The translations under genes were made by a program, and so were the position numbers. Of a stretch of 64,000 bases of DNA, positions 1-60,501 are shown piece by piece (positions within the stretch are counted from its first letter, which is position 1; each line of letters starts with the position of its first letter). This DNA comes from a virus (Duplodnaviria; Caudoviricetes): positions 18,984-82,983 of the IMG/VR virus record IMGVR_UViG_3300031994_000064; one strand, 5' to 3'. The notes under the pieces are model-generated. The model did no database searches. It saw only the letters and a program-made list of their open reading frames with translations, and had not been told where the DNA came from.

Positions 1-93
1 ACCTTACGTGGTATGGGTAGAGGACGTGGAATGGTCGGCATTGGCTGACACGTTGAAGCGTCAATCTATTTAACAAAAAAAATAAAACAACGT
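1..93 (+). mobile_element. Right end of an IS200/IS605-type TnpB element (copy 1, truncated by window edge)
   Basis: Aligns by eye with the 3' ends of the TnpB elements at 6228-7498 and 58322-59582 (CTACGTGGTA..GTAGAGGAC..GTCGGC-loop-GCTGAC..ACGTCAATCTATTT), then A-rich tract ending CAACGT at 93. Confidence 0.85.
2..73 (+). CDS. tnpB: C-terminal end of a TnpB (partial)
   Basis: Frame reads PYVVWVEDVEWSALADTLKRQSI*, nearly identical to the C-terminus of the TnpB at 58367-59560. Confidence 0.75.
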   Translation, partial: PYVVWVEDVEWSALADTLKRQSI

Positions 94-2939: not shown

Positions 2940-4178
2940 ATGGTGTATGTTTTAGACAAAGACGGCAGACCTTTGATGCCGACAAAGCGACACAGAAAAG
3001 TCAGACGGCTTCTTCGTGACGGTCTTGCTGTTGTCGTGAGACGAACACCGTTCACCATCAGACTTCTGTTTGACACGACCCATTACAAGCAGAATGTCAC
3101 TCTTGGAATTGATGCAGGGTCTAAACACGTAGGTGTCAGCGCATCAACGAAAAACGAAGAACTCTTCAGTTCAGAGGTATTGCTACGCAATGATATTGTG
3201 AATTTATTAAGTACGAGACGCGAGGCACGCAGAACAAGAAGAAGCAGAAAATTACGTCACAGAGCTGCAAGATTCAACAACAGACGAAAAGAAGATGGAT
3301 GGCTTGCTCCGTCTGTAATGCAGAAGGTTGACAGCCATATCAAGATTGCGAACCTTGTATGCTCAATTCTGCCTATTGATACAATTGTGATAGAGACAGC
3401 GCAGTTTGATACGCAGAAAATCAAAAATCCAGATATTAGCGGAGAAGAGTATCATCACGGAGAACAAGAAGGCTTTTGGAACGTGCGCGAATATGTTTTG
3501 TGGCGAGACGGTCACGTTTGCCAACACTGCAAAGGCAAAAGCGGCGACAAGATTTTGAACGTGCATCATCTTGAAAGCCGAAAGACGGGCGGCGACAGTC
3601 CAAACAATCTCATAACGCTTTGCGAAACGTGTCACAAATCATATCACAAAGGCGAGATTGAACTAAAATTCAAACACCGTTCAAATTCTTTGCGCGACGC
3701 GGCGTTTATGAATGTTATGCGGTGGCGCGTGTATGAATTGATGAAAAAGATGTTTGCGGACAAGACCGTGAAGATTACTTATGGCTATCAGACAAAGCGC
3801 AAGCGCATTGAAAACGTAATAGAAAAGACGCATTGCGCGGACGCTTTTTGCATTGCTGGTAATTTAACTGCAAGACGCACAGACAGACTTTATAAAGGTC
3901 GTTTTGTCGCACGTCACGCGAGAAGCCTTCACGTGTTTGTGCCAAAGAAAGGCGGAGTACGCAGAAGCACTATTGCAAACCATTGGATAGGGAAAAACAG
4001 ATTGCAACGGTTTGATACGGTTCGATACAACGGTGCTGATTGTTTTATTTCTGGAAGCTCAAACGGAATACCGTTTTTGCGTGATGCTGATTGGAAAAAA
4101 GTTACAAAAACATCAATAGTAAATGCAAAATATGTCAAATTTATGTCTCGTAAGCATAGTTCTTTGTTGATTTTGTAA
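2940..4178 (+). CDS. iscB: IscB RNA-guided endonuclease
   Basis: PLMP motif, RuvC-I GIDAG, Arg-rich bridge helix RRTRRSR, RuvC-II IETA, HNH with Cys pairs, RuvC-III HCADA. Confidence 0.95.
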   Translation: MVYVLDKDGRPLMPTKRHRKVRRLLRDGLAVVVRRTPFTIRLLFDTTHYKQNVTLGIDAGSKHVGVSASTKNEELFSSEVLLRNDIVNLLSTRREARRTRRSRKLRHRAARFNNRRKEDGWLAPSVMQKVDSHIKIANLVCSILPIDTIVIETAQFDTQKIKNPDISGEEYHHGEQEGFWNVREYVLWRDGHVCQHCKGKSGDKILNVHHLESRKTGGDSPNNLITLCETCHKSYHKGEIELKFKHRSNSLRDAAFMNVMRWRVYELMKKMFADKTVKITYGYQTKRKRIENVIEKTHCADAFCIAGNLTARRTDRLYKGRFVARHARSLHVFVPKKGGVRRSTIANHWIGKNRLQRFDTVRYNGADCFISGSSNGIPFLRDADWKKVTKTSIVNAKYVKFMSRKHSSLLIL

Positions 4179-5938: not shown

Positions 5939-6229
5939 TTATCTTTGTGTTTCAATCTTTATTCCGAGTTTAAGCGCGATGAAATGCTCAAGTTTCGCAC
6001 CATGAGAGGCTTTCCACCCTTTGAGCATATAGATGCCGTCGCAATTGACGAGCAAAGGAATCACTGTCTGCATACATTTCTTCCAAGACCATGACACATT
6101 GCAGTGCTTTGTAGGGTTCACGGGTTCGTCTCCGCGAGAATACAAGAACTCTTCTGCTTTTGCGAAATTGTCCATCGCCTGCTCATAGGGCAAACCGCTG
6201 ACTTGACCTGCAATATAAATTTTACTCAC
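5939..6229 (-). CDS. DUF4406-like protein (GTG start)
   Basis: KIYIAGQVSG..CDGIYMLKGWKASHGAKLE pattern. Confidence 0.8.
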   Translation of the reverse strand: MSKIYIAGQVSGLPYEQAMDNFAKAEEFLYSRGDEPVNPTKHCNVSWSWKKCMQTVIPLLVNCDGIYMLKGWKASHGAKLEHFIALKLGIKIETQR

Positions 6230-6244
6230 GTGATTTCTCCTTTC

Positions 6245-7453
6245 TTATTTTGTTAATAATGAAATAGATTGACGTTTCATCGTGTCAGCCAATTCCGACC
6301 ACTCCGCGTCCTCTACCCCTACCACGTAGGGTGATTTATTGTTGTTTGTTAAATTCTGTTCTTGCAAACCGAATCTTAGAATGTTCACGGCGGCGAGCAA
6401 GTCCCTGTCATTGTCGCGACCGCATGACGGGCACACCCATCTTCGCTGTGACAGCTTCAAGTCTTTGTAAACGCTACCGCACAAGCACATCTTTGAACTC
6501 GGCTCGAAACGCCCGATGCGCACAAGGTTTTTGCCGTACCAATCGCATTTATATTGCAACTGTCTGAAAAATTCAGACCACGCAACAGAGCTTATGCTTT
6601 TGGCGAGGCAATGGTTTTTAAGCATTCCGTCCACATTCAAGTCCTCAACGACTATGGTTTGGTTCTCACGCACAATCTTCGATGTTACTTGGTGAATAAA
6701 ATTGGTACGCTTGTTTCTTATGCGCTCATGCTGTTTTGCGACTGCAAGTTTTGCGCGTTCTCTGCGTTTGCTGCCTTTCTGCTTTTTCGCAAGCCGTCTT
6801 TGCAGCACTTTGAGACGCTTTTCCTCTTTTTCAAGAAATTTAGGATTCTCGAACACTTGACCGTTTGAAAGCACGGCAAAATCCTTGATGCCAACGTCTA
6901 TACCAACCGATGTATTAAAATCAATCATCGGCTTTTCGGGCATCGGCTTGCCGTCATCAACGGTTATAGATATATAGTATTTGTTAGTCGGCGATTTAGA
7001 AACGGTGCAAGTACCAATTTTTCCTACAAAAGTTCTGTCGCAGGCAAACTTCACCTTGCCGACTTTTGGCATCTTAACACGCTTATTATCAAAATCAACG
7101 AATACGCAGTCAACAAACTGAAACGAGTTTCTGTTTCTTTTCTTTGACTTGAATTTCGGGAAACCTTTCTTTTCTCTGAAAAAGCGGGTAAACGCGGCAT
7201 CCATATTGCGTATTGACGATTGCAGAGATTGATTTGAAACCTCGGACAGCCATTCTGTCTCTTCTTGTTTTTTAAGGCTTGTGAGTTCTTTTGCGATAGA
7301 CACATAGCTGAGCCTTTCGCCGCTGTTTTGGTATGTTTCAATCCTTCTCTGCAACGCCCAATTATAGACATATCGGCAGCAGCCAAACGATTTCTCAAAA
7401 AAAGTCGCTTGTTCCGCTGTTGGGTATAGCCTATATTTGTACGATTTAATCAT
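6245..7453 (-). CDS. tnpB: TnpB RNA-guided endonuclease
   Basis: YKYRLYPT HTH, RuvC GIDVG / VVEDL / DRDLLAA, Zn-finger CLCG..CPSCG; ATG at 7453 preferred over TTG 7483. Confidence 0.95.
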   Translation of the reverse strand: MIKSYKYRLYPTAEQATFFEKSFGCCRYVYNWALQRRIETYQNSGERLSYVSIAKELTSLKKQEETEWLSEVSNQSLQSSIRNMDAAFTRFFREKKGFPKFKSKKRNRNSFQFVDCVFVDFDNKRVKMPKVGKVKFACDRTFVGKIGTCTVSKSPTNKYYISITVDDGKPMPEKPMIDFNTSVGIDVGIKDFAVLSNGQVFENPKFLEKEEKRLKVLQRRLAKKQKGSKRRERAKLAVAKQHERIRNKRTNFIHQVTSKIVRENQTIVVEDLNVDGMLKNHCLAKSISSVAWSEFFRQLQYKCDWYGKNLVRIGRFEPSSKMCLCGSVYKDLKLSQRRWVCPSCGRDNDRDLLAAVNILRFGLQEQNLTNNNKSPYVVGVEDAEWSELADTMKRQSISLLTK

Positions 7454-7457
7454 GCCG

Positions 7458-7465
7458 CAAATATA
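7458..7465 (-). promoter_or_regulatory. -7 promoter box of tnpB
   Basis: TATATTTG, 4 nt before ATG. Confidence 0.7.
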
Positions 7466-7591
7466 CAAAAAAATTAAATACAAACGGGCTTAATTTTTAT
7501 AAAAGCTTTTTTTTAAAAATATCAAAATAGTTGTATCAACATATTGATTTTTCATTTATAAAAAATCATGAGCCTTTGCCATACTATTTTT

Positions 7592-18229: not shown

Positions 18230-19408
18230 TTAGAAAGTGGTTGAAGACGTTTGCGTGGTGTCGATGATGTAATGGTACAGGAACTTGTCAAGCACCGGAA
18301 TTGCGCTCATCATCAAGTCGCTGTGCCACTCTTTGAGGTTGCCGTTGGCGATGACAGAGTTCATCACAAGGGCGAGTCCGTTCAACGCGCTGGAGAATGT
18401 TCTGTCAATCAGCTTGTTGCCGTATTTCTTGTAGATTTCCTCGTCAAGAATGTTGGTTCTCAACACTTGACCGGCTTTGCCGACAGGACGCAGAACGGCG
18501 GTGTTGTCGTTCCAACCGTGAACAGTCTGACCGGCGAAAGAGTCGTACTGGCTCTCTTCTACAATCACGATTTCGGGCATGTCGTCGCCGAAATTGTACT
18601 GACGGATGGCGTTCAAAGCCATTTCGGTGTTGGCTTGGAAGACCTGCGGCAGAAGCACGTTGTTGAGGCTGTTGTAGTAACGGATAACCTCAAGCACCTG
18701 CGCGTTCTTGAGCCAGTTGTTGAGCCACTGGTTGCGGGTGATTTCAAGCTGCATCTTAATTTCCATGCCGAGATGTTCGCGCACATCGGCGTAAATCTTG
18801 CGCACTTGGTCGAGAATCTTGCAGTTCGTGGTGTCAGACCAAACGACAGCACCGGCTTTCAAGAAGTTCTCGGTTGGGATGTTAGCCTTGTACAGAGGGG
18901 AGCGGACACCATGCTCGTAGTTCCAAAGCACTTGACCCGTTGAAATGGCTTGAGCAGCCATGTTGGAAAGGGTCTGGTTTGCTTGGTCGAGAGCGGGTTG
19001 CAGCCACTCGGTGACGTAGGCTTTGATGAGGTCGCTGTCCTCGAACTGCGAGAACAGTTTTTCGCGCTGGTCTCTCTCCATGGCGGTTTCCACATAACCC
19101 TTGGCGATGAAATCGGGAATCGTGCCCGTATAGTAAGCCAAGTTACCCTTTTCTTGAGGGATGGAATCACCGAGAGGTCCGCGCATATCCATCATGCCGC
19201 CGCTTTCGACTTTCGTCATTTCCTGCACGAAGGTTGCTCTGCCCTTTGGGTTTGTCGGGATGATGGAAGAAGACACCGTGAACTTCTGTCTCCAGAAGCC
19301 GTGGTTGGCGTGTACAAGGTTGGGGTCTTGAAGGATGGTAGAGGTAATCAGCTTGCCTTCCTTGCTGTCCCATAATTTTGCAAATAACGTATTTTCAAAT
19401 TTAGCCAT
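18230..19408 (-). CDS. Major capsid protein
   Basis: 392 aa, strong codon bias, preceded by scaffold and decoration genes. Confidence 0.85.
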   Translation of the reverse strand: MAKFENTLFAKLWDSKEGKLITSTILQDPNLVHANHGFWRQKFTVSSSIIPTNPKGRATFVQEMTKVESGGMMDMRGPLGDSIPQEKGNLAYYTGTIPDFIAKGYVETAMERDQREKLFSQFEDSDLIKAYVTEWLQPALDQANQTLSNMAAQAISTGQVLWNYEHGVRSPLYKANIPTENFLKAGAVVWSDTTNCKILDQVRKIYADVREHLGMEIKMQLEITRNQWLNNWLKNAQVLEVIRYYNSLNNVLLPQVFQANTEMALNAIRQYNFGDDMPEIVIVEESQYDSFAGQTVHGWNDNTAVLRPVGKAGQVLRTNILDEEIYKKYGNKLIDRTFSSALNGLALVMNSVIANGNLKEWHSDLMMSAIPVLDKFLYHYIIDTTQTSSTTF

Positions 19409-19428: not shown

Positions 19429-20250
19429 TTATGCTTCAAGTGTGTCAATTCTTGCCTCGTGGTCTGCGGTGGTGACGGCAACCTTGTTCAAGAAATCAAC
19501 CTTGAACCATCCGTTCACGTTGGCGAGGTTGAGGTCAAGCACACATTGCGGCATAGGTGACATTTTGTGAATGTACATCAGACCGCCAAGAGCGGGGGTA
19601 TAGATGTATCTTGCAGAATCGTAGTCCATGCTCGTGACAGCCTTGACGGTGTTCTTGCCGGTGTCTATGACGGGGTAGTCGAAGAAATCGCAGTCGCAAT
19701 CGACAACGGAGTTGACGGTTTCGACAAGCATCTTCTTGCTTGCACCCGCTTCGGTGGCTTCGACAAGAATCGTGCCCTTGCTGATAGAAGAGGCGATGTT
19801 CGCGCTCACGGTCAAAGCCCACACTGGGTAGTCAACGCTGCTGACGGTGGCTGTCGTCTCGGTGATTGCGGTCACGGTGACACCCGTGCCGGTTCCGCCC
19901 ATGACGGCGGGGGCAACCATGAGGATGTCTCCTACAAACGGCTTGTGATGATAGCCGTCACGAAGGATGTTGATGGTGGTGGTGGCTGCGCTTACAGCCT
20001 CGTAGGTCTTCAGAATGTAGATTTCGGGGCGAACGCCTTGGGCGTTGGTCTTGTACCAGCAAAGGTCGCCTGCGAACATCTTGGCAGGGCCTTTGAAGGG
20101 GTTCATAATCATGCCGCCGAACGTGGGGTAAACAAGTTCGTTCTTGATACCCTGCAATTTGACGAACACGTTTCTTGAACCGCCTACTTCGCCTCTCTTT
20201 TGGATAAGCTCTCGACCTCTGAATGTTCCGACTTCGTTTTCGTAAATCAT
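19429..20250 (-). CDS. Capsid decoration/auxiliary protein
   Basis: Between scaffold and capsid genes; T/V/A-rich. Confidence 0.6.
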   Translation of the reverse strand: MIYENEVGTFRGRELIQKRGEVGGSRNVFVKLQGIKNELVYPTFGGMIMNPFKGPAKMFAGDLCWYKTNAQGVRPEIYILKTYEAVSAATTTINILRDGYHHKPFVGDILMVAPAVMGGTGTGVTVTAITETTATVSSVDYPVWALTVSANIASSISKGTILVEATEAGASKKMLVETVNSVVDCDCDFFDYPVIDTGKNTVKAVTSMDYDSARYIYTPALGGLMYIHKMSPMPQCVLDLNLANVNGWFKVDFLNKVAVTTADHEARIDTLEA

Positions 20251-20290: not shown

Positions 20291-20974
20291 CTACTCGCCT
20301 TGTTCGGCTTTCAAGGCTTCTCCTGCGGCTTTGATGGTTTCCTTGATTTTTTCAAGGTGGCTTGCCGAGCCTGCGCCGCGAGGTGTCAAGTCGTCGTCTT
20401 CGGGCATTTCCGAGAAGAACTCGTTGTACATCTCAAGGTAGCTTTCGGCTTCCGCTTCGATGTCGGTGTTCTCGTCAATCTTCGCCTTGTCGAGCATTGA
20501 TTTCACCCATTTGTCGTTCTTGACACCTTTCTTCTTGATTTCGGCGGCAAGCTGTTCGCGTTTCTGACCAATGGTCTTTTTCGTTTCTTCGGCTTGCTTT
20601 TCGTCCTCAAGCTTTTTCAAGCGTTCTTCCAACTTGGCGATGGTCTCGTCTTTCTTGCCGTCATCGTTGCCGACCTCGTCTTTTTTTTTCTTTTTCGCAG
20701 GCTCTTCGATTTGCTTTTTCAGCTCCTCGATTTGCTTGTTAAAATTCTCGGCGAGGGTCGAATTGGCTTTGTTAATGTGACCTTTCTGCGTTTCAAGCAT
20801 TTTAACGGCTTTTTCCGCAAAAGCGTCAAGTTCGATTTCGCTGTCTTCACCAACAAGTTCGCATAGGGTCTCTACGTGTTCCTTGATGGTTCGTTCCCAA
20901 TCGGCGATTTTTTCTACCTTTTTTGAGAACATTGCCGTGATTTTTTCACGGGCTTCCTCTTTTGTGAATTTCAC
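20291..20974 (-). CDS. Capsid scaffolding protein (GTG start)
   Basis: Highly charged coiled-coil protein heading the head operon. Confidence 0.7.
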   Translation of the reverse strand: MKFTKEEAREKITAMFSKKVEKIADWERTIKEHVETLCELVGEDSEIELDAFAEKAVKMLETQKGHINKANSTLAENFNKQIEELKKQIEEPAKKKKKDEVGNDDGKKDETIAKLEERLKKLEDEKQAEETKKTIGQKREQLAAEIKKKGVKNDKWVKSMLDKAKIDENTDIEAEAESYLEMYNEFFSEMPEDDDLTPRGAGSASHLEKIKETIKAAGEALKAEQGE

Positions 20975-21090
20975 GTTGTTCTATTTTTTTTAAGTTAAAT
21001 AGATTGACGCTTCATCGTATCAACCAATGTTGACTACTCCACGTCCTCTACCCCTACCACGTAGGGTGATTTAAGTTAGTTTATGTTTTT
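20973..21090 (-). mobile_element. Orphan TnpB right-end/omegaRNA module without tnpB (copy 3)
   Basis: About 75 nt (20998-21072) homologous to the tnpB 3' ends, then A-rich tract ending CAACGT; left boundary uncertain (21082 or 21090). Confidence 0.8.
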
Positions 21091-21129
21091 ATCTTTTTTC
21101 AATTTCCTGTTCGTTTTGGATTAACGCGG

Positions 21130-21137
21130 CAAAAATA
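21130..21137 (-). promoter_or_regulatory. -7 box of head/tail operon
   Basis: TATTTTTG on minus strand, divergent from terminase promoter. Confidence 0.7.
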
Positions 21138-21198
21138 ACAATTATTTTGTATTTTTTTATTATTCGGAGGGAAAAATCGTCCTATGACGTTTTTTTTG

Positions 21199-21206
21199 TA
21201 TTTTTG
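21199..21206 (+). promoter_or_regulatory. -7 box of terminase-portal operon
   Basis: TATTTTTG 19 nt before terL ATG. Confidence 0.7.
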
Positions 21207-21225: not shown

Positions 21226-22830
21226 ATGTCCGAGATAAAAATCATACGACCGCAAGCTGGATTTCAGGAGAAGTTCTGCCGTACCAATGTGGATTTCTGC
21301 ATTGGCGGCGGCTTATTGAACTCTGGCAAGTCGTATGCTTCCGTTTTGGCTTGCGCACAAGCGGTTTCAGACCCGAATTTCCGCGCTTTGTACTTGCGTA
21401 ACAACCTCGGCGACTTGAAGGCAGGCGGCGGTATCGCCGATACGTTCAGAGAGATTTTCGGCGAAAGCATAAAGATTGTCGAGTCCGGCGACCCGCACAT
21501 CAATTTCCCAAGCGGGGCGGTCATAGACCTCACGCACGTCGCCAACCAAAGCAGAGAAGCAATACGACAGCGTTTCAAAGGACGTCAGTACGATTTGATT
21601 GTGTTCGACGAAGGAACGGGTTACACTTGGGAATGTCTTACCGAGATTATGACACGTAACCGTGGCAAGGGAAGCTGGACGGGTCACGTGCTTATGACCA
21701 CCAACCCCGAAAAAGACCATTGGATTCGCACGTTCATAGACTGGTACATCGGCGAAGACGGCTACATCAGAGAAGACCGAAACGGTGTGGTGCGCTATTT
21801 CTACATCAACGGCGAAACCGTCAACGATGTTGTGTGGGGCGACACGAAAGAGGATGTATTCAACAAGTGCCGTGTCGAAATATCGCAGCGTCTGCGCAAA
21901 ATGAACGGCAAGAAAGAGATTTTCAAGTGGCAAGACCTCATAAAGTCTTTCACATTCTATCTTGGCAGTATGTCCGAGAACGTAGCGTCCATCAGCGGCA
22001 ATAGCGGTTATGCGGCATCAGTGGCGATGGTCGGCGGTCGTGCCGCCCAGCAATACCTTGAGGGCAACTGGAACGTCAGCACCAAAGGCGACCTAAACTC
22101 ACCGATACCGCAGGCACTCGCAGAATCCGTGTTTGACAACGACCCAATGACCAACGGCGACCGATGGATTACCGCAGACCTCGCCGATACTGGGACAGAC
22201 AACTTCATTGCGCTTGTATGGGACGGCTTTCACGTCTTTGACATGGTTGTAGCAGGAAGAACAACGCCAAGAGAAAATGCGGATATTCTCAAAAACCTGT
22301 GCAGCAAACACAAGATACCAGAAACAAATGTGATTTTCGACGCGACTGGAGGCGTTTATCTGAAAGACTACATGCCTACCGCGATTGCATATTACTCTAA
22401 CGCTTCTCCGATGGGCGTGTACATGAACCGCTATATGAAGCTGAAAGACGAATGCTACGGGCGTTTGTGCACTCTGATAAAAGAACACAGCATTTCTTTC
22501 TCCGAAGACCTCGCCAACAAGATATACTCGCATCCGCTTTTGAGCGACAAGATAACCATCAAGGAAGAGTTCAAAGAGGAATGCGCGTGCGTGAAGTTCA
22601 AGGACGACACCGGCATACGCAGGTCGCTGATTACGAAACGAGAGATGAGAAAGCTGCTCGGCAAGTTCCGTTCGCCCGACTTGTTAGACCCTTGCGCGAT
22701 GCGGATGATGCCCATATTGAGATACGCGAACGGCGAGGAACTGATAAAGACAAGCGCGTACCGAAAAGACGATGAAGATGAAATGGATGGACTTACTGTC
22801 AACGTGTTCGACGATACAACTTGGTGTTAA
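21226..22830 (+). CDS. terL: Terminase large subunit
   Basis: Walker A NSGKS, Walker B VFDEG, MTTNP, nuclease ITADLA and SPDLLD. Confidence 0.92.
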   Translation: MSEIKIIRPQAGFQEKFCRTNVDFCIGGGLLNSGKSYASVLACAQAVSDPNFRALYLRNNLGDLKAGGGIADTFREIFGESIKIVESGDPHINFPSGAVIDLTHVANQSREAIRQRFKGRQYDLIVFDEGTGYTWECLTEIMTRNRGKGSWTGHVLMTTNPEKDHWIRTFIDWYIGEDGYIREDRNGVVRYFYINGETVNDVVWGDTKEDVFNKCRVEISQRLRKMNGKKEIFKWQDLIKSFTFYLGSMSENVASISGNSGYAASVAMVGGRAAQQYLEGNWNVSTKGDLNSPIPQALAESVFDNDPMTNGDRWITADLADTGTDNFIALVWDGFHVFDMVVAGRTTPRENADILKNLCSKHKIPETNVIFDATGGVYLKDYMPTAIAYYSNASPMGVYMNRYMKLKDECYGRLCTLIKEHSISFSEDLANKIYSHPLLSDKITIKEEFKEECACVKFKDDTGIRRSLITKREMRKLLGKFRSPDLLDPCAMRMMPILRYANGEELIKTSAYRKDDEDEMDGLTVNVFDDTTWC

Positions 22831-27900: not shown

Positions 27901-28625
27901 ACAACTCGGCACTGCCGGAGGTTACCGTTGAATTGAACGAAAAAGTCAAAAAAAGAAACTTGTTCTACCCGATACCGTACAACCCTTACCAAAACACAGA
28001 ATACGTGGAATCGCAGAACAAAATGGCTGTGATGAAAATCGTGAAAGAAATGATTGGCGACACTGCTTCTCCGATAAACCAAAACGTAAATGACTTGAAA
28101 GTCAGCGGTGACATAACATTGTCAAACGGCGTTTCTTTGAACTCGCAGATAGCCGCCATAAACGCACAGATTTTCACCAACGACAACATTCAGACAAAAT
28201 ACAATATATGGGCTAAAATCAAAGATGTTGCAGAAGCCGAAAACCTTTTCAAAGACGGTGTTTTTGCGACAGAATACAACAGCATTTCACCGACAAACTC
28301 TGCTGTTTCAAAACTTGAAAACGGCGTGTTCGGCAAAGACGGCTTGCACGTGGAGTTTTCAGACACCATCGCTGGAATCTCTTTCGAGCAAAAGATTTTT
28401 GTCGAAGAAGAAACGGCATACACAATCGTCTTTTACGCTAAATCCGACGACAATGTGAACATAGACACTAAAATATATTATTTTGACGAAGACGACAAAT
28501 CGTTGTCTTATGACACGTTTGAAAACAGAGAGCTGACAACAGAGTGGCAAAAAATTGTTTTCTTGATAAACACGCCACAAGCGACAAATTACCTTACTAT
28601 AAAAATCAACAAGTCCGCATCTTAG
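24936..28625 (+). CDS. Large tail hub/tail tip protein with C-terminal carbohydrate-binding-like domain
   Basis: VNRITGFGSEENIP tail-protein pattern; C-terminal YTIVFYAKS..EWQKI beta-sandwich motif. Confidence 0.65.
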   Translation: MEKVLRLYEIPDVENIVTVLGSGDSLPESGFSENDLFINLNTDGLYKAVENQSQQLQWVQIQFDETKYYRDKSAETPLFFNFSQQYGLNEYDVSFPQNAERAAEITSFTYSATRMGNAPTISGTLMYRQCLDELWTDRVCVFFNKKFYFIDKIPTSEYNNTDERYKHSCEFVSENKLLENVYFTNVVDVEHSGEDEAMLPMQWLDFTFFGGISEFVSRLNLSLEYSGLDAQHVGFRVVKDYLEPVEEKLITISETTLKAALDLIYETWEIPYWFDGYTIHIGYSNEQQMQQAGITMPTFQYGAVQSLLSLQKSQSNDIVNRITGFGSEENIPTFYPNKNPNAIELQYQRNQTLMVDYAKIVNPYKTVKLKPSESVHQGVPSGSYFKYMPITKTYNYDQFMSVNTHAKPKVVDEDGDPSLVLTAIEDYNCQSRYFVQGHGGTPSIIGHSNAHPEYNIICKRIWVWLREGTFESLSIKDEMDAVEMFKKSGASQVLFYDTNAPKFFVKAQSYTYTREQYETVIGNNQGFNQNSSANLIDKYFTLRTESNDVVYVWDDGTETDTYNEVFPIDIQSFPAGTTCLSFTVGLMAKYNDATAPTSYVQTQFKTKTQTVITHTLLSTPDWSLNADGNVAHLWRYGIRLNSDVTPLENDIIYFTKETGALPYYCGMLMPYSFRLTNDIWINAKNNEYLKENGTDYYSFENLYKISCAKEHVENFDDIKPTIKGMMNNDTPSKRIDQIIDVAFDQDDNNDLQENGTDYQHPYFFVKLAKTSLDDGYGFNLFDCAIDGDTMKLNMADGNCGGCTFEVMVDYNDGVAVNPIGVFTEAKTINGVTYAAGTPYRNANGDVMTSNAPNTSGQQDTSAAEVWIALRKDNETFGSYANGAEVVLPDSKRGENFIPQEGDSFTIINICLPYAYIIAAEQRLYYAILDYMERNNPRTWSFSVKFSSIYYKKHYEFMDKWLNESSQLPFVYNDIERKYFVQSYSYKMSNNSALPEVTVELNEKVKKRNLFYPIPYNPYQNTEYVESQNKMAVMKIVKEMIGDTASPINQNVNDLKVSGDITLSNGVSLNSQIAAINAQIFTNDNIQTKYNIWAKIKDVAEAENLFKDGVFATEYNSISPTNSAVSKLENGVFGKDGLHVEFSDTIAGISFEQKIFVEEETAYTIVFYAKSDDNVNIDTKIYYFDEDDKSLSYDTFENRELTTEWQKIVFLINTPQATNYLTIKINKSAS

Positions 28626-28693
28626 TGAACTACCGCTTGGCTAAAGACCAATGGGTTTTCTTGGCAAATTAATTATAAAATGCGGACTTTTCT

Positions 28694-58275: not shown

Positions 58276-58354
58276 AAAATGAGTGAAAGAATCAGAGAGG
58301 AAAAGAAATGACAATTTTCATAAAAATTAAAACCAATCGTATTTAATAATTTTG

Positions 58355-58362
58355 TATCTTTG
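58355..58362 (+). promoter_or_regulatory. -7 promoter box of tnpB
   Basis: TATCTTTG, 4 nt before ATG. Confidence 0.7.
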
Positions 58363-58366
58363 CGGC

Positions 58367-59560
58367 ATGATTAAAGCGTACAAATATAGGCTATACCCGA
58401 CAGCGGAGCAAACGACTTTCTTTGAGAAATCGTTTGGCTGCTGCCGATATGTCTATAATTGGGCGTTGCAGAGAAGAATTGAAACATACCAAAACAGCGG
58501 CGAAAGACTAAGTTATGTGTCTATCGCAAAAGAACTCACAAGCCTCAAAAAACAAGAGGAGACAGAATGGCTGTCCGAGGTTTCAACACAATCTCTGCAA
58601 TCGTCAATACGCAATATGGATGCCGCGTTTACCCGCTTTTTCAGAGAAAAGAAAGGTTTCCCGAAATTCAAGTCAAAGAAAAGAAACAAAAGCTCGTTTC
58701 AGTTTGTTCAACAAGTGTATGTTGATTTTGAAAGCAAACGCATTCAAATGCCAAAAGTAGGCAAAGTGAAGTTTGCCTGCGATAGAACATTTGTTGGCAA
58801 AATCGGCACGTGTACCGTGTCTAAATCACCGACTAACAAATACTATATATCCATAACCGTTGATGACGGCGAACCAATGCCAGAGAAGCCGATGATTGAA
58901 TTTAACACGTCGGTTGGTATTGATGTCGGCATCAAGGATTTTGCCGTTATTTCAAACGGCCAAGTGTTCGATAATCCTAAATTTCTTGAAAAATCGGAAA
59001 AGCGTCTAAAAGTGCTGCAAAGACGGCTTGCGAAAAAGAAGAAAGGCAGCAAACGCAGAGAACGCGCAAAACTTGCAGTCGCAAAACAGCATGAGCGCAT
59101 AAGAAACAAGCGTACCAATTTTATTCACCAAGTAACATCGAAGATTGTGCGTGAGAACCAAACCATAGTCGTAGAGGACTTGAATGTGGACGGTATGCTT
59201 AAAAACCATTGCCTTGCCAAAAGCATAAGTTCTGTTGCGTGGTATGAATTTTTCAGACAGTTGCAGTATAAATGCGATTGGTACGGAAAAAACCTTGTGC
59301 GCATTGGGCGTTTCGAGCCGAGTTCAAAGATGTGTTTATGTGGCAATGTTTACAAGGATTTGAAACTGTCACAACGAAGATGGGTGTGCCCGTCTTGCGG
59401 TCGCGACAATGACAGGGACTTACTTGCCGCAGTGAACATTCTACGATTCGGCTTGCAGGAACAGAATTTAATAAACAACAATAAATCACCCTACGTGGTA
59501 GGGGTAGAGGACGCGGAGTGGTCGGCACTGGCCGACACGTTGAAACGTCAATCTATTTAA
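58367..59560 (+). CDS. tnpB: TnpB RNA-guided endonuclease
   Basis: Same motifs as copy 2, RuvC D/E/D intact; near-identical protein. Confidence 0.95.
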   Translation: MIKAYKYRLYPTAEQTTFFEKSFGCCRYVYNWALQRRIETYQNSGERLSYVSIAKELTSLKKQEETEWLSEVSTQSLQSSIRNMDAAFTRFFREKKGFPKFKSKKRNKSSFQFVQQVYVDFESKRIQMPKVGKVKFACDRTFVGKIGTCTVSKSPTNKYYISITVDDGEPMPEKPMIEFNTSVGIDVGIKDFAVISNGQVFDNPKFLEKSEKRLKVLQRRLAKKKKGSKRRERAKLAVAKQHERIRNKRTNFIHQVTSKIVRENQTIVVEDLNVDGMLKNHCLAKSISSVAWYEFFRQLQYKCDWYGKNLVRIGRFEPSSKMCLCGNVYKDLKLSQRRWVCPSCGRDNDRDLLAAVNILRFGLQEQNLINNNKSPYVVGVEDAEWSALADTLKRQSI

Positions 59561-59580
59561 TCTTAAAAAATAGAAATCAC

Positions 59581-60501
59581 GTGACGAAAAGTACACAAAA
59601 ATACGGTTTGCCATATATGGGCAGCAAATCGACCATCGCGGAATGGGTCATAAGCCATCTTCCGAAAGCGGACACGCTTGTCGATGCTTTTGCGGGCGGT
59701 TGCGCACTAACGCACGCGGCAATGCTGTCACGTAAGTTCAAACGCATAATAGCAAACGACATCACAGACGCGCCGAAACTGTTCATTGACGCTTGCAACG
59801 GCTTATACAAAGACGAGAAACGGTGGGTTTCACGCGAATATTTTGAAGCAAACAAAGACAACGACCCGTTTGTCCGTCTGATTTGGTCTTTCGGCAACAA
59901 CCAGAGATACTACATCTACGCGAAAGACATCGAAGAGCGCAAACACGCCATCCACAACGCCGTACACGACCGAAAAACGGCTCAACTGTCGGCAATAGGG
60001 CTGATAGACCAAGAAGACGCAGAACCTATTGAAAAACGGCTTGAAAGCATTGACGACACGATGCAAAGATACCAGCTTGTCAAGCGCACCATCATCAAAC
60101 ACTCGAAAAACATAGACGCACGGTGCGAGACACTTGAGCGCACCGCGAGGCTGCAACACTTGGAGCGCACCGAGAGGCTGCAACACTTGGAAATCACACA
60201 AAAAGACTATAGAGATGTCGAGATACCGAAAGGAAATACAATCATATTGGCGGATATTCCTTACCGCAAAACAGCCAAATACCTCAACGACTTTGACCAC
60301 GAGGCATTCTACGAATGGGCGTTGGCGCAGAAACACCCAGTGTTCGTCTGCGAGTACGACATGCCGACACCGCCGTTCACGCTTATAGACCAAACATTAA
60401 AAAACAGCCAACTTTCGGCGACCACAACAAAAAAAGCGACCGAAAAGCTGTTTGCTTGCAATTTAACCGACAAAACAGAAGGTCAGATGAAACTTTTTTA
60501 G
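59581..60501 (+). CDS. DNA adenine methyltransferase, Dam/D12-like (GTG start)
   Basis: PYMGSKS, VDAFAGG SAM-binding motif, LADIPY catalytic variant. Confidence 0.85.
   Translation: MTKSTQKYGLPYMGSKSTIAEWVISHLPKADTLVDAFAGGCALTHAAMLSRKFKRIIANDITDAPKLFIDACNGLYKDEKRWVSREYFEANKDNDPFVRLIWSFGNNQRYYIYAKDIEERKHAIHNAVHDRKTAQLSAIGLIDQEDAEPIEKRLESIDDTMQRYQLVKRTIIKHSKNIDARCETLERTARLQHLERTERLQHLEITQKDYRDVEIPKGNTIILADIPYRKTAKYLNDFDHEAFYEWALAQKHPVFVCEYDMPTPPFTLIDQTLKNSQLSATTTKKATEKLFACNLTDKTEGQMKLF
60136..60189 (+). repeat. 27-nt tandem duplication (ERTARLQHL / ERTERLQHL)
   Basis: Two units with one mismatch. Confidence 0.9.

What the first reader, a model, noticed from the sequence alone, without database searches (positions are those of the whole stretch)
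20960..21140. Orphan omegaRNA-like module in the 5' leader of the head operon, structure kept by compensatory changes
Seen: about 75 nt matching the tnpB 3' end sit between the head-operon promoter (21130-37) and the scaffold GTG, with no tnpB. The former reading frame has a TAG (21034-36, TGG in other copies). The main hairpin GTCGGC/GCCGAC has become GTCAAC/GTTGAT, so both strands changed and pairing is retained. Joining either upstream AT (21092-91 or 21084-83) to the G gives ATG-AAA-TTC. Inference: a guide RNA that could load the other TnpBs in trans and target ATG alleles of the scaffold gene in competing phages, or a module retained as a translational control element for virion genes.
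Basis: partly seen in the sequence, partly recalled or inferred. Interest (0 to 1): 0.85.

Follow-up and report, generated by a model that had tools for sequence, protein, structure and literature searches.

The report
Stand-alone TnpB guide-RNA scaffold as leader
A 128-base leftover of a TnpB jumping element, reduced to its intact guide-RNA scaffold, sits at the start codon of a rumen phage's head-scaffold gene and supplies its new GTG start. The phage's two TnpB nucleases might use it to cut rival phages that lack it, but stand-alone scaffolds of this kind are already known.

Summary
Window 21098-20971 (minus strand) is a 128-nt insertion. It is absent from at least 12 related phage loci, which read ATG where this phage reads GTG.

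The insertion is the right end of the phage's own ISDra2-like TnpB element without tnpB. It contains the complete structured core of the guide RNA (omegaRNA). A covariance model built only from 74 chromosomal tnpB 3' ends scores it at 51 bits, as high as the tnpB-linked copies.

The same insertion, with the same 15-nt variant left flank, occurs 100% identical in a second phage lineage that is about 80% identical elsewhere. So it moved by recombination.

The genome has two intact tnpB genes, an IscB and a RecT, but no TnpA.

- **Most likely (about 0.5):** a stand-alone omegaRNA, transcribed as the head-operon leader, loadable by TnpB in trans, that directs cuts to insertion-free alleles.
- **Main rival (about 0.3):** an inert relic kept because it now carries the start codon.

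Expression, TnpB binding and the TAM are untested. Stand-alone omegaRNAs are published, and this scan has noted similar phage cases.

The parts
21130..21137 (-). TAnnTTTG box (Bacteroidota-type -7 promoter motif) of the head operon. It is conserved in all related loci, with or without the insertion.
   Evidence: Promoter function is inferred. A mirror box at 21199-21206 (+) lies 20 nt before the terminase ATG.
21099..21113 (-). 15-nt variant of the leader that always accompanies the insertion and ends in TTGA. Insertion-free alleles have other sequences here that end in ATGA.
   Evidence: identical in the window and in the L018 lineage, absent from all 12 insertion-free locus groups.
20971..21098 (-). 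The 128-nt insertion: right end of a TnpB element without tnpB and without a left end.
   Evidence: The terminase-scaffold spacer is 251 nt here and 123 nt in insertion-free relatives. BLAST matches to tnpB 3' ends.
21073..21098 (-). 5' part of the insertion. It resembles the last tnpB codons only weakly and lies outside the structured core.
   Evidence: One natural variant (G>A at 21085, + strand) was seen in a DNA run.
20975..21072 (-). omegaRNA scaffold core. Helix H1 is 21066-21052. The outer stem is 21045-21041 with 21010-21006. H2 is 21037-21017. H3 is 21003-20997 with 20986-20980. The tail CAAC is 20978-20975.
   Evidence: Covariation in 81 sequences, 24 of 24 pairs with compensatory changes. 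Model R1, built without the phage copies, gives 51.4 bits, E 2e-15, full length. The minimum-energy fold of the sequence alone recovers H1, the outer stem and H2.
21017..21037 (-). Helix H2 carrying the five changes specific to this copy (21035, 21031, 21030, 21023, 21019). Three G-C or G.U pairs became A-U. 21036-21034 reads TAG.
   Evidence: The same five places appear as differences when other copies are laid on it (table 3).
20971..20974 (-). GTGA: last bases of the element, or first bases of the flank. GTG 20974-20972 is now the start codon. GUGA could pair with UCAC at 21069-21066 as a pseudoknot (inference).
   Evidence: the occupied sites of copies O, B and C all read ACGTGA where the empty sites read ATGA.
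20955..20974 (-). Stretch from which a 16-nt guide would be taken. The register is uncertain: it starts at 20974 by homology with relatives, or at 20970 if GTGA belongs to the scaffold.
   Evidence: alignment to the model; matching ATG alleles.
20291..20974 (-). Scaffold-like head gene (227 aa). It is followed by an unknown gene (19429-20250) and the major head protein (18230-19408).
58352..59584 (+). tnpB copy B (402 aa) with its omegaRNA (59483-59584). The RuvC D/E/D motifs are intact. It abuts the GTG of a Dam-like methylase gene.
   Evidence: Empty site in L028.
6226..7483 (-). tnpB copy C (412 aa) with its omegaRNA (6337-6226). It abuts the GTG of a DUF4406 gene.
   Evidence: Empty site in L030.
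1..93 (+). Second orphan module (copy A; it begins about 20 nt before the window). It lies 9 nt upstream of a DUF3127 (SSB-like) gene and RecT, and it is partly decayed.
   Evidence: (37.5 bits).

Best explanation
The stretch is a stand-alone omegaRNA. It is the right end of the phage's own ISDra2-like TnpB element, cut down to the complete guide-RNA scaffold. It is inserted at the start codon of the head-scaffold gene, so that its last bases rebuild the start as GTG.

Shown: its identity, its integrity, its presence or absence among close relatives, and its transfer between phage lineages together with a short piece of flank.

Inferred: every transcript of the head operon must begin upstream of it, so it is made as the 5' leader of that mRNA late in infection. 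The TnpB proteins of the two full elements bind it in trans and trim it to a scaffold plus about 16 nt of the gene's first codons. The complex cuts insertion-free (ATGA) alleles of co-infecting relatives. The phage's own copy is spared because the element end replaces the TAM. RecT-type repair from the occupied allele then copies the insertion with a few flanking bases. The result is a passenger of TnpB homing that may also hurt competitors.
For: - **It is an insertion.** It is absent from 12 related locus groups, which have ATG and a spacer 128 nt shorter.
- **It belongs to the RNA family.** Model R1, built only from 74 chromosomal tnpB 3' ends, finds it full length at 51.4 bits. The tnpB-linked copies score 52.0, 49.1 and 43.5. 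In the 81-sequence alignment, 24 of 24 pairs show compensatory changes.
- **Its own changes preserve pairing.** All five specific substitutions lie in helix H2 and none breaks a pair. Chance is 2e-4 to 7e-3 in simulations.
- **Both orphans in the genome keep the whole core** with only about 25 nt extra on the 5' side.
- **Effectors are present.** Two tnpB genes have conserved D/E/D motifs and are close to ISDra2 TnpB (E 7e-81). RecT is present and there is no Y1 transposase.
- **It moved by recombination.** The insertion plus its 15-nt variant left flank is 100% identical in a lineage about 80% identical elsewhere. That lineage also has its own insertion-free relative, L154.
- **Matching targets exist.** Insertion-free alleles with exactly the downstream sequence occur in nature.
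- **Precedent.** Stand-alone omegaRNAs work in trans in other systems (PMC10691335, citing Altae-Tran 2021; PMC10055086). In ISDra2 a 116-nt scaffold suffices (PMC10097598).
Against: - There are no data on transcription, processing, binding or cleavage. The public RNA runs were uninformative.
- The family-invariant 3' UUCAC, which forms the pseudoknot in ISDra2, reads CAAC in both orphans.
- The TAM is unknown and the guide register is ambiguous.
- The sister orphan A has broken pairs and a mutated end. This suggests orphans can simply decay.
- The compensated changes may have arisen while a tnpB was still attached. The TAG would only shorten a dispensable C-terminal tail.
- The insertion is a minority allele, and perfectly matching empty alleles are common.
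- Ordinary mosaic recombination at the conserved promoter box occurs anyway, as in L160.
Confidence: 0.5

Rival explanations
1. It is an inert relic. A full TnpB element once sat at this start codon and lost its left end and tnpB. The right end persists because it now carries the only start codon and an A-rich, unstructured translation start region, so it cannot be lost without a precise replacement. The intact structure reflects youth, not function.
For: - The sister orphan A is decaying, with a U.U pair in H1, a C.A pair in H3, its end mutated, and a score of 37.5 bits.
- The two lineages that carry the insertion are 100% identical, so little time has passed.
- One contig already has a pair-breaking change in H3 (L015).
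- It is a minority allele with no sign of a sweep.
- The 3' invariant UUCAC is lost.
- Mosaic exchange at this promoter is common (L160).
Against: - Five of five specific changes are compensated within one helix.
- Its model score is as high as, or higher than, the tnpB-linked copies.
- Both orphans stop just upstream of the functional core.
- No tnpB-linked copy with this helix variant, and no full element at this site, was found in the IMG/VR virus contigs or the JGI metagenome contigs.
Confidence: 0.3
2. It is a cis-acting leader. The folded scaffold, alone or bound by TnpB, tunes translation or stability of the head-operon mRNA. The GTG lies at the scaffold-guide junction and would be buried in a TnpB complex.
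For: - The leader grows from about 20-27 nt to about 150 nt and folds as predicted.
- The start codon abuts the scaffold.
- Copies B and C stand in the same relation to their downstream genes.
Against: - Most relatives do without it.
- The folding z-score of the whole leader is modest, -1.67.
- There is no Rfam family or known regulator match.
- The arrangement follows directly from where the element lands, so no regulatory role is needed to explain it.
Confidence: 0.1

Closest known systems
Stand-alone (effector-less) omegaRNAs of OMEGA systems (Altae-Tran et al. 2021, as summarised in PMC10691335)
   Same: It is an omegaRNA scaffold next to a unique flank. It has no nuclease or transposase gene of its own and lies in a genome that also holds compatible effector loci. 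Such RNAs have been shown to work in trans.
   Different: - It is in a phage.
- It is fused to a start codon that it rebuilds as GTG.
- It is the obligatory 5' leader of an essential late gene.
- It was spread between phage lineages by recombination together with a flank piece.
- Trans activity was not tested here.
PATE-like protein-less IS200/IS605 derivatives (Meers et al. 2023, PMC10055086)
   Same: It is a non-autonomous, gene-less derivative that keeps the omegaRNA and would need TnpB in trans.
   Different: PATEs keep both ends. Here no left end is detectable (chance level), so TnpA could not move it. The genome has no TnpA.
ISDra2 TnpB omegaRNA (PMC8612924, PMC10097598)
   Same: The protein is a close relative (E 7e-81). 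The scaffold is of similar length and multi-stem, lies at the right end, and takes its guide from the flank.
   Different: It is not overlapped by tnpB. The 3' terminal UUCAC and its 5' partner are not kept in any of the phage copies. An alternative UCAC:GUGA pairing is possible but untested. The TAM may be WTGA rather than TTGAT.
TldR guide RNAs (PMC10705468)
   Same: It is a TnpB-family guide whose effect would fall on the 5' end of a gene, and that family also occurs in phage contexts.
   Different: The effectors here keep all RuvC catalytic residues. The guide matches its own flank, not a distant promoter.
Intronless homing by free-standing phage endonucleases (reviewed in PMC13565253)
   Same: The predicted outcome is the same: the rival's allele is cut, it is repaired from the donor, and short flanks are co-converted.
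   Different: Specificity would come from an RNA transcribed from the insertion itself, with the nuclease encoded elsewhere in the genome.

Membership tests
TnpB omegaRNA (ISDra2-like clade) | Matches a sequence-and-structure model built from tnpB-linked copies | tested here: met
   Model R1 was built from 74 chromosomal copies and none from the phage. It scores this copy at 51.4 bits, E 2e-15, model positions 1-109.
TnpB omegaRNA (ISDra2-like clade) | All covariation-supported helices present and paired | tested here: met
   26 of 26 pairs in H1, the outer stem, H2 and H3 are standard.
TnpB omegaRNA (ISDra2-like clade) | Pseudoknot between the last scaffold bases and a 5' segment (ISDra2 positions -5 to -3 with -103 to -105) | tested here: inconclusive
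   The family's UUCAC/UGAA is absent from all phage copies. Copies O and A read CAAC. UCAC:GUGA is possible but invariant, so it has no covariation support.
TnpB omegaRNA (ISDra2-like clade) | Overlaps or follows the 3' end of a tnpB gene | tested here: not met
   No tnpB lies within 14 kb. Upstream are a promoter-like box and the divergent terminase gene.
TnpB omegaRNA (ISDra2-like clade) | The guide equals the flank, and insertion-free alleles carry a TAM plus a matching target | tested here: inconclusive
   A matching target is present in L156, L157, L158 and L160. The TAM is not determined: ATGA is common to the three empty sites, but the register is ambiguous.
TnpB omegaRNA (ISDra2-like clade) | Transcribed, bound and processed by TnpB | not testable with these tools
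   Public RNA runs are held only as contigs that break at the repeat.
Stand-alone omegaRNA | No effector or transposase in the element, with a compatible effector elsewhere in the same genome | tested here: met
   Two tnpB genes have scaffolds 84-86% identical to this one and keep the D/E/D motifs.
Stand-alone omegaRNA | Evidence of mobility | tested here: met
   It is polymorphic among close relatives and present in two backgrounds with the same co-transferred flank. A second orphan lies at another site.
PATE (protein-less IS200/IS605 element) | Both left and right transposon ends | tested here: not met
   Similarity of the upstream region to the tnpB left ends is at chance level.
TldR-type guide | Nuclease-dead effector, with a guide matching a distant promoter | tested here: not met
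   The catalytic residues are conserved. There is no second match of the flank in the genome at 2 or fewer mismatches.
Curated cis-regulatory RNA (Rfam) | Match to any Rfam family | tested here: not met

The most novel reading that the evidence does not exclude
The phage runs a small multi-guide arsenal. Two TnpB nucleases are served by four guide scaffolds, two linked to tnpB and two stand-alone. Each scaffold is planted at or next to the start codon of a gene: scaffold, SSB-like, methylase and DUF4406. The element family is adapted to land on ATGA start codons and rebuild them as GTGA, so it is harmless to its carrier. It marks carriers as 'self' and directs cuts to the same genes of rival phages, acting as an RNA-guided drive and competition weapon that works without any transposase.
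Probability: 0.3. Interest if true: 0.75.

Novelty: new variant of a known kind. Interest (0 to 1): 0.5.

Why it matters
If the leader is loaded by TnpB, this is a natural case of one nuclease being given extra targets by gene-less guide cassettes. That step is often invoked on the road from transposon guides to CRISPR arrays. Here it occurs in a phage where the only plausible use is homing or competition between phages, because no transposase is present.

The locus is unusually testable. Nature supplies matched occupied and empty alleles in two genetic backgrounds, and some empty alleles carry the exact predicted target.

It also shows how a right end that finishes in GT(GA) lets an element sit inside a start codon of an essential gene without killing it.

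If it is only a relic, it is an ordinary footprint of TnpB element turnover.

Tried and rejected
- **GenBank phages:** a distant DNA search found no match.
- **Rfam:** nothing at the gathering threshold or at permissive thresholds.
- **Left-end remnant upstream of the module:** local alignment to the tnpB left ends is at chance level and resembles only the promoter consensus.
- **Relatives of the SSB-like gene, to find an empty site for orphan A:** none.
- **TAM from multi-copy archaeal relatives:** the left boundaries could not be placed cleanly.
- **A second target of the four flanks inside the genome:** none at 2 or fewer mismatches, apart from one 2-mismatch match to the flank of orphan A at genome 63706 that looks like chance.
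- **Codon 3 as an escape mutation.** I considered that empty alleles survive because TTT at codon 3 is a mismatch to the guide. Rejected: L156, L157, L158 and L160 are empty and match perfectly.
- **Short gene calls as a mark of occupied alleles.** Rejected: the 211-214 aa calls are empty alleles called from an internal ATG.
- **Decayed duplicate of the target at the left junction, as abortive gap repair would give.** 13 of 15 bases match, but shuffle p is about 0.03 in A-rich sequence, and a competing alignment to the empty leader exists. Left open.
- **Public sequencing runs.** The phage occurs in sheep and bovine gut samples. Two metatranscriptome runs hold parts of the region, but only as contigs that stop at the repeat, so nothing can be said about transcription of this copy.
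- **Further modules in about 40 other fetched loci:** none.

Full report
**Context.** The window is bases 18984-82983 of an 82,983-bp IMG/VR virus record with direct terminal repeats. Public runs place the phage in sheep and bovine gut samples. The finding lies in the 251-nt spacer between two divergent genes. One is the terminase large subunit (21226-22830, +). The other is a 227-aa gene (20291-20974, -) that opens an operon ending in the major head protein. Each side of the spacer has a TAnnTTTG box about 20-27 nt before the start codon in relatives. This fits a Bacteroidota-type host, which is an inference.

**Observation.** BLAST of 20901-21200 against the window finds three other copies of a roughly 100-nt segment at 84-88% identity. 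Two of them are the 3' ends of full tnpB genes, copies B and C, which are 91% identical to each other over 1285 nt. The third, at the window start, matches tnpB over only about 103 nt and is preceded by an unrelated gene, so it is a second orphan (copy A). The whole genome has two tnpB genes, no Y1 transposase, an IscB and a RecT.

**It is an insertion at a start codon.** Relatives of the scaffold-like protein were fetched from the IMG/VR virus contigs, ENA and Logan. Twelve locus groups, at 65-97% protein identity, share the same promoter box, a short leader and an ATG. Their terminase-scaffold spacer is 123 nt instead of 251 nt. The difference is the 128 nt at 21098-20971.
- The occupied allele reads ACGTGA where empty alleles read ATGA.
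- The same holds for the two full elements. Their empty sites in L028 and L030 read ATGA at the start codons of a Dam-like methylase gene and a DUF4406 gene.
- The left flanks of the occupied sites keep (A/T)TGA, so TGA stands on both sides and the junction cannot be placed more precisely.

**It is the omegaRNA scaffold, complete and intact.** TnpB copy B is a close relative of ISDra2 TnpB (E 7e-81), with the RuvC D, E and D motifs conserved in both phage copies.
- A scan of genome contigs gave 80 chromosomal relatives at about 50% identity, mostly in Methanosarcinales.
- Their 3' flanks align with the phage copies into four helices: H1, an outer stem, H2 and H3. All 24 predicted pairs show compensatory changes.
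- A covariance model built from the 74 chromosomal sequences alone finds the orphan over its full length at 51.4 bits, E 2e-15.
- For comparison, the tnpB-linked copies score 52.0 (D, in a relative), 49.1 (B) and 43.5 (C). Orphan A scores 37.5.
- In ISDra2 a 116-nt scaffold suffices, and the region 5' of it is dispensable (PMC10097598). The orphan keeps 124 nt of element sequence before GTGA.

**The compensated changes.** Against its nearest relatives (copies D and A), the orphan differs in the core by five transitions. All five lie in H2, at 21035, 21031, 21030, 23 and 19 of the 210xx series (that is, 21023 and 21019).
- They convert pairs G-C, G.U and G-C into three A-U pairs.
- The TGG to TAG change is one side of the first of these pairs. 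It is therefore not evidence of frame decay.
- With five random transitions on the 102-nt core, all five fall in paired positions without breaking a pair in 0.2% of trials, or 0.7% if only G/C to A/T changes are allowed.
- Two or more double-sided compensations with no break occur in 0.02-0.2% of trials.
- So pairing in H2 was under selection on this lineage. Whether that was before or after tnpB was lost cannot be told. The TAG would only have shortened a C-terminal tail that is dispensable in ISDra2.

**Spread.** Four contigs of a second lineage (L018, L010, L015, L058) are 78-82% identical to the window in the flanking genes. They are 100% identical (one contig 99.3%) from the promoter box through the insertion to codon 5.
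- In both lineages the insertion is preceded by the same 15-nt leader variant (21113-21099). None of the empty alleles has this variant.
- The second lineage has its own empty counterpart, L154.
- The insertion therefore has a single origin and moved by recombination with short co-converted flanks, not by fresh transposition.
- This is what nuclease-stimulated homing would produce. Ordinary mosaic exchange at the conserved promoter box also occurs, as L160 shows, so the pattern is suggestive rather than decisive.
- The insertion is a minority allele, and empty alleles that match its downstream sequence exactly are common.

**Points against function.**
- The 3' terminal UUCAC is invariant in the chromosomal family and forms the pseudoknot in ISDra2. 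It reads AUCAC in copies B, C and D and CAAC in both orphans.
- None of the phage copies has the usual 5' partner. UCAC just before H1 could pair with the terminal GUGA instead, but this is untested.
- Orphan A has a U.U pair in H1, a C.A pair in H3 and a mutated end.
- No expression data could be obtained.

**Comparison with the known.** Stand-alone omegaRNAs that lack effector and transposase, lie in genomes with compatible effectors and work in trans are published (PMC10691335, citing Altae-Tran 2021). PATE-like elements with omegaRNAs have been discussed in the same sense (PMC10055086). TnpB-dependent, TnpA-independent spread of IS605 among plasmids has been reported, as reviewed in PMC13565253. 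Earlier notes of this scan describe similar gene-less scaffolds as leaders of phage head genes on other DNA. What differs here:
- there is no left end;
- the module is fused to a rebuilt start codon of an essential late gene;
- matched occupied and empty alleles occur in two genetic backgrounds.

In four literature searches I found no paper describing this arrangement.

**Verdict.** The anatomy is secure. It is a gene-less right-end and omegaRNA module inserted at the scaffold start codon, structurally intact and recently exchanged between phages. Its activity as a trans guide is plausible, at about 0.5, but unproven. An inert relic is about 0.3 and a cis-regulatory leader about 0.1.

Noticed in passing
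window 1-93 (+), starting about 20 nt before the window (genome 18960-19076): A second orphan omegaRNA module (copy A) lies after an unrelated gene and 9 nt before the ATG of a DUF3127 (SSB-like) gene, which RecT follows. It shares the 3' CAACGT with the finding but has two broken pairs and GTAG instead of GTGA.
   Followed up: partly
window 58316-59584 (+) and 7540-6226 (-): Both full tnpB elements also sit at start codons. Relatives L028 and L030 read ATGA where these read ACGTGA, and the GTG starts a Dam-like methylase gene and a DUF4406 gene. The left end of copy B looks like that of copy C with an internal deletion of about 70 nt between short repeats.
   Followed up: partly
window 2940-4178 (+): A 412-aa protein with RRXRR and HNH domains (IscB-type) is encoded in the same phage as the two TnpBs, with no transposase anywhere in the genome.
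   Followed up: no
L018:5663-6708, equivalent to window 21327-21330; also L155 and L159: In some relatives the terminase large subunit carries an in-frame insertion of about 349 aa with LAGLIDADG homing-endonuclease domains (an intein), about 230 bp from the orphan module. The window's terminase lacks it.
   Followed up: partly
L160:440-545 against the window and L018: A mosaic relative combines L018-like sequence upstream of the TAnnTTTG box with window-like leader and gene downstream. The conserved promoter box is therefore a recombination joint between lineages.
   Followed up: no
window 21106-21092 against 20972-20958 (-): The left junction of the insertion resembles the first bases of the gene on the right (13 of 15 identical, shuffle p about 0.03). 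It could be a decayed target duplication from abortive gap repair, or chance in A-rich sequence.
   Followed up: partly
window 28621-28673 (-): A weak match to the omegaRNA model (15.1 bits, E 0.009) spans the model only through large deletions. It is probably noise.
   Followed up: no
L061-L140: The closest cellular relatives of the phage TnpB and its omegaRNA found by the scan are in Methanosarcinales and other methanogens, with a few in Bacteroidales and Cytophagales bins. The phage itself has Bacteroidota-type promoter boxes. The scan's peptide patterns may bias this list.
   Followed up: no
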